A stretch of DNA of 64,000 bases from Octopus vulgaris (lineage: Eukaryota): the NCBI GenBank assembly GCA_951406725.2, contig OX597827.1:61752001-61816000 (forward strand), given 5' to 3'. The notes beneath the pieces are model-generated. The model made no database searches. It saw nothing but the letters and a program-made list of their open reading frames with translations, and was not told where the DNA came from. Positions within the stretch are counted from its first letter, which is position 1. Each line of letters begins with the position of its first letter. Positions 7,352 to 58,200 of the stretch are shown here, in pieces. The translations under genes were made by a program, and so were the position numbers.

Positions 7352-7860
7352 TAGTTAGTCAGTTAGTTAGTTAGTTAGTTAATTTGGCTCAAAAGCAAAT
7401 AGCAAGGCCATGTAGGGGGGACATGGAGTTAAGTACAGGGTGGTGTTCATGTAAAGAGTTCAGGCCACTTGAGGTCAAGGGAGGCTTTGAACAAAGCGGT
7501 CGTCGGCATCTTCACCATCTCGTCTGGCAGCTTGTTCCACGGATCCGCAACCCGGACAGAGAAAGCTCCTCTCCTTCGATTGAGATGAAATCGTCGCAGG
7601 TAGAGCTTTTCGGAATGACCCCGCAGCCGACGCTCTGGAGCAGGAGTGAAGAACAGCTCTTTCGAGAGGTTACACTTTCCGCTTATGATGTTGTGGGCGA
7701 GAATGAGATCACCACGGCAGCGGCGTTTTTCAAGAGAATAAAGGTCGAGCGTCCTCAGCCTTTCTTCGTAGGACAAATTTTTGAGACCATGAACCATGCG
7801 GGTAGCCAGCTTCTGGACTCTTTCGAGATGCTGTATGTCTTTGAGGAGATAAGGAGAAGT
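7352..7860 (-). mobile_element. Young 5'-truncated CR1-clade LINE (ORF2 C-terminus, 3' UTR and (TAAC)n tail)
   Basis: Open frame 7447-7797 (LSYEERLRTLDLYSLEKRRCRGDLI...FSVRVADPWNKLP) is typical of the CR1 ORF2 end. Tandem TTAG tail at 7352-7382. Confidence 0.9.
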
Positions 7861-8288
7861 GTTGATGTCTCTTTAGAGAGAGCACCATTGGCTGCAACCA
7901 TCTGACTCTTATCTTTTATAAAAGTCATGCAGCCACTTCCTTACTTTTCCTTTGTTTTGATACCAGGGTTATGTAATTTGTGACATTGACGTGATCAACG
8001 TTGTTGAAAGCCTTGACAAAGTTGGGATATATCACTTCCATATTTAAATAAGAGTTAGTTCAAATTTGGCATCAATTACAATTAACATGTTGACGAATTG
8101 ACTCATACAGATTCTGAGTGGTTGTTTGGGGAATTTTGAGCTATTTTCCAAGTAAAACCTGCTTTAGCTTTTTCAGTAACAATGGTGGAGGGAATTGACT
8201 CTGTTTGATTATATTGAGATTCCAAGATTGTGTGTGTGTGTGTGGGGGTGGGGGTGGGCAATTCAAGTTGTCTATTTCACTTTTGAGC

Positions 8289-18758: not shown

Positions 18759-19680
18759 GATGAAAAATTGTTTACGAAACAATTCCCTTCTCCTAATCAC
18801 CGCTCACCGCCCTTTTTATGATTGTTGCGATTGTGTGTTTGCTTCTTTTCGAGTCACACATGTGTTTAGTGTCTGTACTTTTTACCGTACTCGATATACA
18901 TTGTGTGTATGGCTTTTACATTGTTCTTGTATGTGCGTGTTATTGTTTATATATATATATATGTATGTATGCATACGTGTGTGTGAGTATATTGTTTGTT
19001 GTGTGCGCGCGCTTTTACTTTCTCTTTCACTCCGCCTGGTTCCGCTGGCGTCTAATGACGTAAAAGACAAACATTTAGGAATGTATCTCGCGTATATTTG
19101 AAAGTATTTTCTTGTGTGTGTGTATGTATGTGTTTGTTTGTGAGAGTGTGAGTGAGAGAGAGAGAAAGTGGTGCAGTCTGGTGTTAGACGTGTAAAAGGG
19201 TGTGGAGAGTTAAGACATGCGTTGTAAGTATAAGCAATGTGATTTGCAGTGATTTGTTTATTATTATTATTAATTTTGGGTAAGTTATTTTCAGCACTTA
19301 CGTATTCACCGAAGACTGAGTCTTTGAATGAATTTTTTCGCGTCATATTGCCACATTCTTTTGCAATAATAACATCTCTTAAGTTAATTTAATTTCTTTC
19401 CAAGCTGAGCATTTACTTACTACAGTTTGGTTTCGTCGAGTATAAACACTTGTTTTCTTCTTTTAGATATGTGAAAAAGACATTTGCAAATGAGACTTGT
19501 CAACCAATCAGGTCGGATAAGAAAAATAATTATGTAATAAAACGAGAGCTTTGGTTTATGGGGGAGGTTTGCGAAAGAAAGTGTATATAACGTACTGAAC
19601 CATGTTTTGGAAATATATATTAACACTTTTCCAAAACAGTTTAATTATATAAATATATAGCTACCTCCCTACACACACAC

Positions 19681-19724
<44 letters not shown>

Positions 19725-21936
19725 GTATATATACACATGTGTGTGTGTAGGGAGGTAGCTAATGGTATTTATCATGGGTGGTTTGAGATGCATAAAAAAG
19801 CAGAACAAAAAAAAAACCAAAAATGAATTTGACCTCACAGTGTCACGGAAAGACAGTAGGAAGGAAGGAAATAAGAAATAAAGGTTATTGTTCCCCCATC
19901 TCCTTTCTCTCGTTCTCTACCTTCCTCGTTTTTTTTTCTCTTCTCTCCCACCCCCACCCTCACCCCCCAGTGTCTATTACATATTCCATCAATTTTTTTT
20001 TCTCCTTCTCTTCTCTTCACTTCCCTTCTATTGTTATTTCACCACTACTCCCCCACCCACCCCCGTCTTCACACTGTGTCGTTTTTTTCTCTTCTGTTGT
20101 GGCTATAGCTTAGCTAGCTTGGCTCGCTGTGTGTCTAACATGGGTTTTTGAGTTAAGGAAATTGGTTAACTCACCCACTTTTTTTTTTTTATAGGATTGT
20201 GTGTGTATGTGTGTGTGTTTCATGTCAGAAATTATAAAACGAAATTTCCTGAAGTATATTTGTCCGCCTCTTCCTCTCCCCCTCTCTGTCTCTCTCTCTC
20301 TGGTATAAAGTATCTTTTCTCGTCTGTGTGTGTGTGTATCTATGTATTAAAATGTTTCGTGTAAAGAAAAATTAGCTTATCTGCGTTAAAAAAAGATGCT
20401 TTGCTACTCGATTTGACATGCACAGCTCTCAGGGAGTGATTCGGGTGCGCAGTAGAAATTGTTTTTGCATTATAAAATACTTTTCTTTTTTGTATGAAAT
20501 AGTACAAAATTAGATGTATAATGGATAAGACTAGTTTTGCCGACCAAATGTGAAATTAACAAAAATAAACAGCAAAAAACTATACACATATTTTACGCAT
20601 ACGAGTGAAAAAAATTTTCTTTATTAAATCAACAATTGTTGAATAATCGTTAAATTTTTATGTACAAAATGTAAAAGTAACAGCTTTTATTAGAAAGAAT
20701 TGTTGAAAACAATTTTCATCTGAAATAGTATGCTATTTAATAATCATAAATGTTAACTGCAGCTGCTTTTAGGCTTTGTAGGCAGATCTTAAGGATATAC
20801 CGGTCTTTAAATCGGGAATATACCAACACTTGCATAATAGCTAATAATAGCGCTTGCTTCAATTATATTGAATGAGAACATAGCTGCTTCGAGTATAAAG
20901 TGCTCGGCTCTGACTTAATGGTTTATAAGTTCAGTTTTCCCTATTAATATTTGAGTGTAATATCTCTTTTCCAGGTTCATAAAATTGCTGTTTGTGAATA
21001 TCCAAGTTTTGAAGGTTATTATTTGTTTGCAAGGTTTCGTTGAATATTTTTTTTTTTTTAACATTTGGTTATCGGTCTTCAGTCTAGGAATGCCAATTAT
21101 TACAAACAGAAATCTTAAAGATAGCTGTAGTCTCAGTTCACTAACTAATCACAATTGCGTTTAAATATCCTGGAAGATAATTTAATTTGCTGACACCATT
21201 AATCATAATCATCTTCATCATTATACTAGTATATATGTTTAAAATACTAGGATGTAGGTGATCTGTAATTTTTCAGTTTGGCAATAAATGGAACACTAAT
21301 ATTGATGGTATCTCTGAATTGTTTAGCTTATAAACAGTGCTTTTTCCCCTACACCAACTAATATACAAACTTGTACATTTTAGTTAGTGTTTCTTCAATC
21401 ACTACAAGTAGAGCAAAGACTATGCTTTGCTGATGATGTCAGAATAATACTGAAACACATATATTGTCTCCTTTATTTGCTGGAAATGAAAATATTAAGC
21501 CATTGCTATTAACTTCATAGCAAATTCATTTGTCGTTCAGGTTACTTTTTAATGCTTTGTGCATGAAATATATTAAGTTATTGTTAATCTGTTTTGTAAT
21601 ATTTGAGTCCTATTGAGTTTATGATGGAAAGGAAAGACCCCCTCCCCCGCAATCCAAACAGACGAAACAAGGGGTATCATCATACTTGAAAAAGAAAGCA
21701 TCATAAAACATATGGTAGGATGAAAGAGATGTTTATAACAATGGAAACCAAAGACTGAACCATGCCACAGCAGGGTTTGGCTGCTTCTTTACAGTATTCT
21801 ACTCTTTGAGGTTTTTATGTGATCATTCCCATGGACTGTTTTACAAACTGTGAAATAAAAACTCTACAGAAACTAAGATAACTGCTTCGGTTGAGAGCAA
21901 ATAATATAAATTTGTCCTATTGTAAAAAAAAAAAAG

Positions 21937-52705: not shown

Positions 52706-53126
52706 GGCAATCTTTCGTCTCTAGTAGACCTTTCCGTCGATTTCCGTAAAAAATTTTTTTTTTTTTACATATGGGCTTGCGGGAACTTTTGAAGTAATGA
52801 GAGCGAAAGAGACTAAGAAAAAGCGATTGTATGACGAGGGAAGTTCTTTTGAAGTTACCGTGCATGGGAAGCATTGATGTACATGTGTGTGTGTTTGATG
52901 GGGTGTGGGAGACAGACAGTATGTTGTGTAAGTGAAGTGCTTCTGTTAGTGTGTGTGAAGAGACAGAGTAATGTGTGAAAGAAAGAGATAACTGAAATTT
53001 TTTACTCGGTGTATGTGTATATGTATGTATATATTACTTCAAAAGTTCCTGCAAGCCCATATGTAAAAAAAAAAAAAAAATTTTACGGAAATCGACGGAA
53101 AGGTCTACTAGAGACGAAAGATCGCC
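52706..53126. mobile_element. Merlin-like MITE with ~90-bp TIRs, copy 1
   Basis: GGCAATCTTTCGTCTCTAGTAGACCTTTCCGTCGATTTCCGTAAAA...GGAACTTTTGAAGTAAT is inverted at the other end. No recognisable TSD. Confidence 0.88.
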
Positions 53127-53903: not shown

Positions 53904-53992
53904 AGAACCCTTGTCCGGAATGTTAGAATTAGCATTTCAGAACACACTAGTGTGTTCTGAAATGCTAAGTCTAACATTCCGGACAGGGCTCT
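53904..53992. repeat. Near-perfect zero-loop palindrome, ~44-bp arms
   Basis: TGTCCGGAATGTTAGAATTAGCATTTCAGAACACACT|AGTGTGTTCTGAAATGCTAAGTCTAACATTCCGGACA, centred at 53948/53949. Confidence 0.95.
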
Positions 53993-54194
53993 TTGGTGAA
54001 TGAGAAGGCGTGTGGCAATCTGCTCTAAATATTATCTAATAGCACTGCTTGTTTCCCAAAGTTAGAAATCACTTCATGACAAGCTAACATTTTTTGCCAC
54101 ATTATAAAAAGAAAGAAATCTTTATAAAACTGATTTTGACAACTCAAAAGCTCACACTGCTTACAACTCGTCAAACTATATTGTTTGACCGGTT

Positions 54195-54623
54195 GGCAAT
54201 CTTTCGTCTCTAGTAGACCTTTCCGTCGATTTCCGTAAAAAAATTTTTTTTTTCTTTTCACATATGGGCTTGCGGGAACTTTTCAAGTAATGAGAGCGAA
54301 AGAGACTAAGAGAAAGCGATTGTATGACGAGGGAAGTTCTTTTGAAGTTACCGTGCATGTGAAGCATTGATGTACATGTGTGTGCGTGTGTGTGTTTGAT
54401 GGGGTGTGAGAGACAGACAGTATGTTGTGTAAGTGAAGTGCTTCTGTTAGTGTGTGTGAAGAGACAGAGTAATGTGTGAAAGAAAGAGATAACTGAAATT
54501 TTTTACTCGGTGTATGTTTATATGTATGTATATTACTTCAAAAGTTCCCGCAAGCCCATATTTAAAAAAAAAAAAGTTTTTACGGAAATCGACGGAAAGG
54601 TCTACTAGAGACGAAAGATCGCC
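54195..54623. mobile_element. Merlin-like MITE with ~90-bp TIRs, copy 2
   Basis: Near-identical to 52706-53126 in the same orientation. 8-bp TSD GACCGGTT at 54187-54194 and 54624-54631. Confidence 0.9.
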
Positions 54624-55034
54624 GACCGGTTTTTTTTTTTACTTTACTAAAATATCAGGAATTGAATCAACTTTGGTGCATGCTTTGTTGAAACTCGTAG
54701 ACAGCCAACCCCGGCAGGATTTGAACTGGTAACATTGAGACGCAATTAAAAGGTATATCTATACAAATGTTTCTCATAACTTTCAGAAAATTTGGTATCT
54801 TTTTTAAATGAAAATTTCTACAAACATTTTTTCAGGTCGTGCAGATTTCGATTATATCTAAATTTGGCGTAACTTCGGTATAGGTACCGGAAGTACCGGA
54901 TACATTTCAAGAAAGTGTTTATATATATATATATACCGGAGTAAACACATAAATGTGAAACAAGGTGGGAAAAAGAGTACTCAAATACCAGTGGTAGAGT
55001 AATATGCTTTATTTTAAGCAGCAGAAAATTCAAC

Positions 55035-55081
55035 AAAATCTGTTACCCTGAGTTTCTCGTTGCCGTTCATCAGACAGTTTT
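55035..55081 (-). ncRNA. Minimal type I hammerhead ribozyme (minus-strand arm)
   Basis: Minus strand reads CTGT CTGATGA ACGGCAACGA GAAA CTC A GGG TA ACAG; stem III has one U-G wobble. Confidence 0.75.
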
Positions 55082-55089
55082 TTCTAGCA

Positions 55090-55136
55090 AAAACTGTCTG
55101 ATGAACGGCAACGAGAAACTCAGAGTAACAGATTTT
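55090..55136 (+). ncRNA. Minimal type I hammerhead ribozyme (plus-strand arm)
   Basis: CTGT (55094-97), CTGATGA (55098-104), ACGGCAACGA, GAAA (55115-118), CTC A GAG, TA (cleavage after 55127), ACAG. Confidence 0.82.
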
Positions 55137-55165
55137 GTTGAATTTTCTGCTGCTTAAAATAAAGT

Positions 55166-55213
<48 letters not shown>

Positions 55214-58200
55214 GTGGGGGGGTTAGGGGGTGAGAGAAAAGGGTTTCTGTTATCTTCAGAAACAAAGCCACTTCCGGTACTTACGGTACCTATACCGAAG
55301 GATCGCCCTAAATTTAATGCGGGGGAGGAAAATCCGGAAAATCTAGTGGTCGCGCACACATACATACTTAAAGAAAAAAAAAATTGATGTGTGTGCGCGC
55401 CCTACCATCTTTGTGGGATTCTCCCCCTCTATATAATCGGAATCTATACCATCTGAATGGTATTTGTAGAAAATTTCATTAAAAAAAAAACACGATTTTC
55501 TGAAAGTCATGCGAAAACAAATGGGGGCACACTTGTGTAAGTATGCCAATACTTAGTTCCGTATAGCGTTTCTGTCGTTCATCAAAGCACGCAATAACAT
55601 TTTTTTGTCGGTTTTGTCCATCCATAGTTTTAATAGTGCGTGAAGCAAAGAAAAGCTGTGTTAGAGAATCGCCTGAGATTAGATTTCATTGTAAAAACAA
55701 AAAGACACGGAGCCCCGATGGATCTCTTCATCAGTAAGTAGCCTTCGATAGGTTCTTAACGTACGTTATTTTTTAAAAAAACCTGCTTTCTTGTAAAGCA
55801 ATGTTCTTTAGGAAAAAGGAAAAAGGAAGTTAATTTGAAGAAAACGCTGGAATTTGTTTTAAAAAGGCGGTAGTTTCAAAAGTTGGGAAAAGCACGCGTG
55901 ATTATTTCTTTTGTTTTCTGTTTTTGTTTTCTCGAGAAAGATGGAAAGAGCTGCGAATGCTTGTATATATTTTTTTATCTTGTTTCAGTCATTGGACAGC
56001 GGTCTTGCCGGGGGAAGCGCATTGTAAAAGTTTAATCGAACAAATCAATCGATCCCAGTAATTTTTCTTAAAACATCCGGGTTACTTATTCTTTTGCCGA
56101 ACTGCTAAGTTACTCGGACGAAAACAAAGCAACACCAGTTTGTAAAGCAGTGACCGGGGGGAGAAACACACGGGGCTTCTAGTTTCCGTCTAGCAAATCC
56201 ATAGACAAAGCATTTAGTCGGCCCGGGACTCTTGCACAAGGTGCCGCCACGCAGTGGAGGTGAACCCGGAACCATGTGATTGGGACGCAGATTTCTTACC
56301 ACACAACTAACGTTGATCTCTTTTGTTTTGTCAAATCGATCCGGCCGCATCTGTTTCGTTACCAGGTAGGGATTGCAGAGATTGAACTATGAGGGAAGGT
56401 GAGGGCGGAAGGATCTTGTTAATTGAATGGCTGTTCACTGTGTATTATTTAGAATAGAAATTAGTCCTGATTATTGGATGATGGTGATGGAAGTGTACCG
56501 TTGGGGTTACAAACGGAACACACACAGACTGATAAAATGCAGGTTTTTTCCCTACCGCTGCTGCTACTATCACTACAAATACTAACAATAACGTTGCGAA
56601 CATTATTATTATTATTTAACGTTTAGGAACGCTACACATTTCTTAATTTTATTTCTAATTTTTTTATTAACTTTTGTGTTATGATAGTCCCTAACTATTG
56701 TTGCAGTGTTTTCGGGAAAGGCATCATCAACATCACTGAATTTACTTTTTTTCTTCTTCTGAACATTTTTGAAACTTTAATACTTGTGTAAAGAAAAGAA
56801 AAGAAAAAAAAAAATCTGTGCTTTAAATGTATTGTAAATAAATTTAGAGTTATCGTAAAAGGTGGTTAAGATTCCTAGGTTAACCAAATCTGCAAGGCAG
56901 GTTCGATGTTTGGTTGAGATGCAGACAGGGCTGAACAGTTTTGGGAGTTCGCTTGGCAACTTCGTAGTCACGGGTTCGATCACGTTATATGGTACCGCAG
57001 GCAATATGTTTTGGTAGACTGTTGATTGGTGCTCACCCATCCCTGTTAGTTTTTTTTTTCCTCCGTAACTGTCTAAAAATGAATTTTAACGAAATTTTTG
57101 TCGAGATTAGTTTTCGACAGCGTATATTATGAAATGTCGAGGTTTTACACAAATATCGAAGGAAAAAAGGTTAAAAAAAAATAATAATAAAATTACGGAA
57201 ATTGATTATAAAAGTCGAAGTGGGAAGATGAAAGCAGCATTAATTATCTTAGGTCGTTCAATTCCCCTCAATTGATCAATAGAGTAAACTTATCAGTAAC
57301 AAATCTATAGTGGCTACTGAAAACATCTGTAAGCTAAATTTGTTCCAGTAAAGGGAAAATATGTAATGAGTATTATTTTAAACTTGTTTCTTATCCATCC
57401 ATCCATCCATCTATCTATCTAAAATAAATCCGTTTCTTTCGGGATTTTCCCATATTTGATAGTTTTCCATTTTTGAAAACATTAAGAAAGTGAAAAAGCG
57501 TGGAAAAATTCAGATTTTTATTCCGAAAGTCCGCTGTCCGTCTATATATGTTTACCGGTGTGAAAAAAACAAAAGCGTTGTCCAGAAGCCTAATTTGGTC
57601 TTTCGATAACAGATATCAAGGCAAATAATAGGGTCGATATGATGAATTAAAATCACTTGAATGTGTTGTCCTCTGTATTGACCGCAGTCCAATGATTGGA
57701 ACCAGTGAAACAAATACTGTGCATAGAAGCAAAATCTTCGACGTTCTTCCCGTAATTAACCTTTAAAAAAGTTGCAGTATTAGGGAAAATAATAGAGAAG
57801 ATTCGCAGATAGTCTGTCGAGAGTTTAGTTTTTAAATTTATTTATTTTTTTAATGATTAGTTGAGATGACTTCTCTGTCTCTTATTCCAGTCATTGAACT
57901 GCAGCTATGCACCACTGTGAATGACAAATCGACCCTAGTACTTATTTTAAAGCCTGGTATCAATTCTGTCGGACTCTTTTTGTCGAGCCACTACGTTACG
58001 GAACCGCAAACAAACCAACATTAGTTATCAAGTAGTGGTGGGGACAAACGCATACGTAGATACCTACGTACGAACGACTCTATCTACCAAATTCACAATG
58101 CATTATTCGGTCTGAGACTTTATTAAAGGACACTTGCGCAACCAAGGTGCCTCGTAGTGAGACTGAACCCGGAACTATGTGATTGAAATTCGAGCTTCTT

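What the first reader, a model, noticed from the sequence alone, without database searches (positions are those of the whole stretch)
55007..55164. Inverted pair of minimal hammerhead ribozymes forming a palindrome
Seen: both arms of a ~160-bp palindrome carry the full hammerhead core, read as stem I CTGT/ACAG, CTGATGA, a short stem II (CG-GCAA-CG), GAAA, stem III CTC-A-GAG and a GUA cleavage triplet. Transcription in either direction therefore yields a hammerhead. Known: minimal type I hammerheads with near-loopless, self-complementary stem III occur in Penelope-like element terminal repeats and are proposed to cleave as dimers; inverted terminal repeats are typical of these elements. Inference: a read-through transcript would contain the ribozyme plus its own antisense, so self-cleavage would compete with a long dsRNA hairpin (an ADAR or Dicer substrate), which could act as a built-in switch.
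Basis: partly seen in the sequence, partly recalled or inferred. Interest (0 to 1): 0.85.

Follow-up and report, generated by a model that had tools for sequence, protein, structure and literature searches.

The report
Fold-back stub of a Penelope retrotransposon
The back-to-back hammerhead ribozyme motifs are real, but they are the two short ends of an ordinary, recently spread Penelope-like jumping gene, a stub seen hundreds of times in this genome and likely made when both cut DNA strands copy the front end of the same uncut RNA; it is unlikely to be a regulatory switch.

Summary
Observation confirmed: a 158-bp palindrome (55007-55164) carries a type I hammerhead motif on each strand. It is part of a 229-bp insertion (54936-55164) in a TA run. 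Both arms are the terminal repeat (pLTR) of a young 3365-bp Hydra-clade Penelope-like element with an RT + GIY-YIG ORF. Inverted, 5'-truncated pLTRs and opposite-strand hammerhead pairs are published features of such elements. The stub is made again and again, not copied from one founder. The same junction occurs 100 times, with the tail on either arm (39:18:1 of 58) and on several subfamily alleles. Arm ends pile up at a sharp edge 78-86 nt upstream of the pLTR end, not at the ribozyme cut site. Short arms pair only with short arms (44 short-short, 11 long-long, 0 mixed). Likely cause: dual priming on one uncleaved RNA, running off its 5' end. The switch idea is not supported: the antisense arm is transcribed first, and the hairpin wins by 75-80 kcal/mol. 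The scan noted the same kind of by-product before in another genome (e1-9995956).

The parts
54936..55164 (.). Whole 229-bp fold-back insertion of a Penelope-like element, set in a TA microsatellite
   Evidence: The 30 best genomic copies share these ends, flanked by TA runs; 1 of 30 has the tail on both arms
54936..55006 (-). 71-bp 'tail': the sequence that follows the pLTR in the full element, just ahead of the ORF
   Evidence: Continues into the ORF leader in full-length copies; 4913 exact tail ends join TATA, 67 continue into the element
55007..55083 (-). 5'-truncated pLTR arm bearing the tail, ending in the A5 run (about -76)
55040..55077 (-). Type I hammerhead motif, predicted cut between 55044 and 55043; stem III has a private A-to-G change at 55047
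55078..55088 (.). Head-to-head junction joined by T microhomology; 100 exact copies in the genome
55082..55164 (+). 5'-truncated tailless pLTR arm, starting at -83 and ending at AATAAAG
55094..55131 (+). Type I hammerhead motif: CTGT / CTGATGA / A-CG-GCAA-CG-A / GAAA / CTC-A-GAG / TA / ACAG, predicted cut after 55127
54922..54935 (.). Left TA run (target site)
55165..55211 (.). Right TA/CA run (target site)

Best explanation
The palindrome is two 5'-truncated terminal repeats of a young Hydra-clade Penelope-like retrotransposon joined head to head in a TA microsatellite, likely formed when both nicked target strands prime reverse transcription on one uncleaved element RNA and both cDNAs run off its 5' end. 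Shown: the arms match the pLTR and tail of a 3365-bp RT + GIY-YIG element, the insertion ends fall at two fixed sites (pLTR end and tail end, 71 nt apart), and arm ends pile up at -78 to -86 from the pLTR end. Inferred: the edge is the transcript start (CCA-TTCT, A at -84, initiator-like by recalled consensus). Inferred: the cDNA 3' ends join by 1-4 nt of microhomology, often at the self-complementary CTAG. Inferred: long-armed copies come from circular or tandem read-through RNA, which has no end at -84. The ribozyme is a passenger in the stub and would be locked in a hairpin if the stub were read through. Identity as a by-product: about 0.92. The run-off step: about 0.65.
For: Parent element: arms match pLTR and tail at 94-98% in 10 of 10 long loci, with ORFs up to 762 aa; 59 of 61 scored ORF matches have no stop; Hydra motifs present. 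Edge: of the first 100 of 1647 tailless ends, 53 stop at -25 to -85, 26 at -80 to -85, 0 at -86 to -100, 0 at the cut site (-34 to -40). Of the first 57 of 4913 tail ends, 13 stop at -78 to -86, 1 at -87 to -100, 2 at -34 to -40 against 23 at -41 to -77. Twelve arms sit on the edge while their partner ends elsewhere or is absent, so CTAG self-annealing alone does not explain it. One template: 44 short-short, 11 long-long, 0 mixed, 17 without partner of 72 mapped. The -9 allele agrees between arms in 31 of 33 scored copies, 7 of 40 unscored. Recurrence: tail on either arm 39:18:1 of 58; a second junction has 138 copies. In vitro, an Anolis PLE primes on both strands at two internal sites that bound the tail, uses uncleaved RNA, and gives shorter products on 5'-shortened RNA (PMC11167929).
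Against: No transcript start was mapped. The edge also coincides with the base of the extended stem I hairpin (-84 to about -21) and lies a few bases 5' of a TTCTAG|C acceptor-like site, so other causes remain. The TATA-like motif upstream is weak. The second-pass set was chosen for intact ORFs, and later synthesis may simply be more processive. Arm concordance could partly come from gene conversion between arms. Samples are the first rows on one chromosome; 28 of 100 arms ran past the fetched flank and were left out of the pairing table. The tailless sample is limited to one exact subfamily motif.
Confidence: 0.65

Rival explanations
1. Same by-product, but the edge is a structural stop: as the cDNA crosses the extended hammerhead stem I it folds back on itself and releases the reverse transcriptase. 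Or the edge reflects RNA processing at the TTCTAG|C acceptor-like site.
For: The leader folds into one hairpin that begins exactly at -84, and stops rise from -60 towards -85. In D. virilis Penelope the intron ends at the 5' end of helix I (PMC4209133).
Against: 0 of 22 second-pass cDNAs stop there. Most edge arms include 3-7 nt upstream of the AG. No GT..AG joint over the pLTR appeared in four contig sets (contigs show presence only).
Confidence: 0.2
2. The fold-back arises by self-priming on an antisense template, as proposed for rotifer Penelope palindromes.
For: Proposed in PMC3846280 (passages). Perfect CTAG-centred junctions are the commonest class counted (138 copies), and the arms share alleles.
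Against: Many junctions are asymmetric or have no palindrome. Both outer ends sit at the two fixed sense-RNA priming sites. Sense-RNA priming on both strands is shown for a related element.
Confidence: 0.08
3. The 229-bp palindrome is a non-autonomous element that copies itself as a unit.
For: At least 40 copies are 98-99% identical over 237 bp; 100 share the exact junction. One copy (L134) has a junction that could descend from a window-type stub.
Against: The identical junction occurs with the tail on either arm and on -9A, -9T and -23T backgrounds that also exist in long pLTR arms (6 and 9 of 74). It is one of dozens of junctions.
Confidence: 0.04
4. The inverted pair is a selected switch in which self-cleavage competes with a dsRNA hairpin.
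For: A read-through RNA would hold the ribozyme and its antisense, and the hairpin is very stable (z=-22.6).
Against: The antisense arm always comes first; the energy gap is 75-80 kcal/mol; no intramolecular dimer is possible. Stem II is closed by A.A. Stubs show scattered decay, including deletions in the core.
Confidence: 0.03

Closest known systems
Hydra clade of C-terminal EN+ Penelope-like elements (Craig et al. 2021, PMC8557442)
   Same: RWK, DKT, CxCX5C linker, CxxC and CxH around E and N, C-terminal GIY-YIG, hammerhead in the pLTR, TA-run targets, inverted 5'-truncated copy and one-sided tail
   Different: Unit is 3365 bp (most described are under 3 kb); tail is 71 bp rather than 30-40; short fold-backs make up half or more of sampled insertions. 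Their supplement, not read, may already list this family.
Poseidon element PAc of Anolis (Frangieh et al. 2024, PMC11167929)
   Same: Two internal priming sites bounding the tail, AT-rich targets, both strands extended, uncleaved RNA as template
   Different: Different clade; here the ribozyme lies upstream of the ORF, and the evidence is a genomic footprint rather than biochemistry
Minimal type I hammerheads of metazoan PLEs (Cervera and De la Pena 2014, PMC4209133)
   Same: Short palindromic stem III, location in pLTRs, pairs on opposite strands 100-700 bp apart reported in Schistosoma
   Different: Stem II is 2 bp closed by A.A instead of the conserved G10.1-C11.1; sister subfamilies carry U4C; the pair is only about 20 nt apart
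Non-LTR retrozymes (bioRxiv 10.64898/2026.07.22.740005; PMC7229834, listing only)
   Same: Short, non-coding, type I hammerhead, PLE-derived
   Different: Retrozymes are head-to-tail tandems; this is head-to-head and not clonal

Membership tests
EN+ Penelope-like element | Single ORF with RT and C-terminal GIY-YIG endonuclease | tested here: met
   711-aa ORF with FDIIDFY, YRDD and GVVY..YTG. Atlas look-alikes carry GIY-YIG, RVT_1 and PF26215 in part of their members. The Pfam scan itself gave no family.
EN+ Penelope-like element | pLTRs from partial tandems, adjacent inverted 5'-truncated copy, one-sided tail | tested here: met
Hydra clade | RWK and DKT motifs; CxCX5C linker in place of CX2-5CxxC; CxxC and CxH around E and N | tested here: met
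   Motif scan against the clade description
Hydra clade | Insertion into (TA)n | tested here: met
   30 best copies. Of 60 further copies, 29 have both ends in TA by a strict pattern, 23 one kind of end, 8 neither.
Hydra clade | Phylogenetic placement among reference PLE clades | not tested
   No named reference sequences were in hand
Type I hammerhead ribozyme | Core C3-A9, G12-A15.1, U16.1-H17 with stems I-III | tested here: met
   Both arms. 41 of the first 100 of 6804 family arms have U4C (counted by eye).
Type I hammerhead ribozyme | Paired 10.1-11.1 at the base of stem II | tested here: not met
   A.A in this subfamily; A-U, A.G, A.C or U.U in relatives. PMC3088659 would reject such a hit unless activity is measured, but reports an active U.U case.
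Type I hammerhead ribozyme | Covariation of stems | tested here: inconclusive
   Within the genome, 17 sequences are 90% paired but no better than shuffles, and the core was fixed by the search pattern. One distant relative (L229, 46% protein identity) has changed, paired stems I and III in both pLTRs.
Type I hammerhead ribozyme | Self-cleavage | not testable with these tools
   No pile-up of arm ends at the cut site
Rfam hammerhead families | Covariance model hit | tested here: not met
Non-LTR retrozyme | Head-to-tail tandem units each with a hammerhead | tested here: not met
   Inverted single pair; definition

The most novel reading that the evidence does not exclude
The thousands of stubs record how Penelope-like elements make their inverted ends: one protein complex primes both target strands on a single RNA, and there are two template classes. 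An uncleaved linear leader whose 5' end at about -84 gives hammerhead-bearing mini-palindromes (half or more of insertions). An endless circular or tandem RNA gives all long and full-length copies. If the endless class is a circle closed at the hammerhead cut, the ribozyme would set the ratio of dead stubs to viable copies. The U4C and U4 subfamilies then offer a natural test.
Probability: 0.4. Interest if true: 0.55.

Novelty: new member of a known kind. Interest (0 to 1): 0.27.

Why it matters
The finding itself is an ordinary transposon remnant. Its family, though, is young, has dozens of intact ORFs and thousands of insertions, and shows a clean footprint: a hard edge, paired arm lengths and no stop at the cut site. 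That footprint bears on two open points in the papers read: how inverted pLTRs form and what PLE hammerheads do. It also supplies hundreds of near-perfect 80-bp hairpins that could feed RNA editing or silencing if transcribed, which is untested.

Tried and rejected
Rfam: only microRNA-precursor models below their gathering scores, which reflect the hairpin; no hammerhead family. Pfam: no family for either ORF. Expression: no RNA holder listed. Three contig sets guessed to be RNA show the tail bin far deeper than the ORF (9023 against 44-200; 12772 against 9-90; 2875 against 0-298). Tail ends outnumber tail-to-ORF copies 4913 to 67 in the genome and no DNA-run control was obtained, so this is not taken as evidence of a discrete RNA; expression and editing stay open. 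A stop at the ribozyme cut site: 0 of 100, 2 of 57, and 1 of 26 second-pass arms; rejected. Clonal spread of the stub: rejected. The first pairing table gave 5 short-long pairs; three were matches to TA runs and two were alignment overruns at the edge; corrected. In-genome covariation was not above shuffles. A search for divergent families with a 48% relative returned only this family. The metagenome scan gave 2 relatives of 126 candidate stretches, one with pLTRs. Lunse et al. 2017 was not held; only its title was seen.

Full report
Observation. The window holds a 158-bp palindrome at 55007-55164, 97.5% self-complementary. A type I hammerhead descriptor hits only at 55098 (+) and 55073 (-), against 0.07 chance hits per window. 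The plus arm reads CTGT, CTGATGA, A-CG-GCAA-CG-A, GAAA, CTC-A-GAG, TA, ACAG. The minus arm has GGG for GAG, private to this copy. Stem II is closed by A.A, not G-C. Rfam gives no hammerhead hit.

What it belongs to. The window lies in a 2.8-Gb genome of 227 contigs. Its repeats looked octopus-like to me from recall; this was not tested. The palindrome plus a 71-bp tail forms a 229-bp insertion (54936-55164) in a TA run, with at least 40 copies at 98-99% identity. A search for arms with a different upstream sequence gave 2275 matches, many in head-to-head pairs from tens of bases to over 5 kb apart. All 10 long loci fetched have the same arms around ORFs. The unit is 3365 bp: pLTR, tail, a 711-aa ORF, 3' UTR. 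The ORF has RT motifs, a C-terminal GIY-YIG, RWK, DKT, a CxCX5C linker, and CxxC and CxH. These are the features given for the Hydra clade, which targets (TA)n (PMC8557442, passages). It has 1074 database relatives, the listed ones 43-58% identical, and 59 of 61 scored genomic matches have no stop. So this is a young Hydra-type Penelope-like family; no tree was built.

Why a palindrome. Coordinates are counted from the pLTR end (AATAAAG); the predicted cut is at -37. Insertions end at two fixed sites: the pLTR end (1647 exact matches) and the tail end (4913). I mapped the first 100 tailless ends listed, all on one chromosome. 53 stop at -25 to -85, 26 of them at -80 to -85; none at -86 to -100; 19 at -101 to -570; 28 beyond; none within 3 nt of the cut site. 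The first 57 tail ends, which include older subfamilies and so are less exact, give 13 at -78 to -86, 1 at -87 to -100, 2 at -34 to -40, 23 at -41 to -77, 13 nearer the end and 5 long. Twelve arms lie on the edge with a partner ending elsewhere or absent. Of 72 arms with mapped ends, 44 are short-short, 11 long-long, none mixed, 17 without partner (correcting).

Recurrent, not clonal. The window's junction occurs 100 times and a perfect CTAG junction 138 times. In the first 58 of the 100, the tail is on one arm in 39, the other in 18, unclear in 1. In 40 of them the -9 allele is A/A in 18, T/T in 13, discordant in 2, unscored in 7. The -9T and -23T alleles also occur in long pLTR arms (6 and 9 of 74), and several rare changes are shared by both arms of one copy. 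An older related family made a similar short fold-back (L291).

Mechanism. In vitro, the Anolis element PAc nicks AT-rich DNA, extends both strands, and starts at two internal RNA sites that bound the tail. It uses uncleaved RNA, gives shorter products on 5'-shortened RNA, and its hammerhead cleaves only with protein (PMC11167929, parts 1-2 of 4). Penelope transcripts start inside the pLTR (PMC2377424 and PMC6765202, passages). I infer that both nicked strands prime on one leader RNA at 0 and +71, copy through the uncleaved hammerhead, run off near -84, and join by microhomology. Long copies need a template that continues past -84, either a circle or a tandem read-through; circles were proposed in PMC4209133 (parts 1-2 of 4). 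The main rival is a structural stop, because the extended stem I hairpin also begins at -84. The second-pass result argues against it but does not exclude it. Antisense self-priming was proposed for rotifer elements (PMC3846280, passages).

The ribozyme. Its status as a hammerhead homologue is good. A relative at 46% protein identity has, in both pLTRs, a motif whose best fold is a hammerhead with different but paired stems I and III. In-genome covariation is inconclusive. Activity is doubtful. 41 of the first 100 of 6804 family arms carry U4C, which lowers activity in vitro, and mismatches at 10.1-11.1 are usually rejected though a U.U case is active (PMC3088659, passages). In the stub, folds holding the ribozyme cost -57.6 against -132.8 kcal/mol (plus strand) and -56.8 against -136.4 (minus); in the single leader the gap is only 4.7. 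The antisense arm is transcribed first in both directions, and one transcript has one sense motif. The switch is therefore not supported.

Known or new. Inverted truncated pLTRs, tails, TA targeting and opposite-strand hammerhead pairs are all in print. I found no paper describing the hard edge with paired short and long arm classes in searches. Subscription papers are not covered, and the supplements of PMC11167929 and PMC8557442 were not read and may bear on this. The retrozyme preprint was read in part 1 of 5. Verdict: a new member of a known kind, interest 0.27, with a testable mechanistic footprint as the only added value.

Noticed in passing
G000 genome-wide; e.g. L296, L299, L307, L322: Sister subfamilies of the same element carry a U4C hammerhead core (CCGAUGA or CCGACGA) and different stem II closing bases (A-U with a GGAA or GCAA loop, A.G, A.C). 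41 of the first 100 of 6804 arms have U4C, so copies spread with a core expected to be weaker.
   Followed up: partly
L169-L198, L291, L292: An older related hammerhead family with U.U closing stem II and stem III CTC-T-GAG; 99 pattern matches, some by chance. At least one forms a short fold-back with a tail.
   Followed up: partly
L229 (3174-bp metagenome contig): Full relative with two pLTR hammerheads, a longer stem II closed by C.A, and an end in a TA run.
   Followed up: partly
window 53904-53992: 89-bp palindrome centred on CTAG, 93% self-complementary, no hammerhead core seen; single match in the genome search.
   Followed up: partly
window 54770-54900 and 55273-55516: Decayed inverted repeats (78-86%) surround the insertion, so the TA run hit by the element lies inside an older MITE-like element.
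   Followed up: no
window 54188-54630 and 52706-53126: Two MITE-like elements with related terminal inverted repeats of about 100 bp.
   Followed up: no
window 19658-19761: 104-bp palindrome built around a TA run with unique outer arms.
   Followed up: no
window 7450-7872 (-): Open frame resembling the C-terminal end of a CR1/L2-type LINE reverse transcriptase (resemblance recalled, not tested).
   Followed up: no
L061 998-8598: A 7.6-kb double fold-back insertion with one intact ORF arm and nearly identical inverted partner (99.8%), a very recent insertion.
   Followed up: partly
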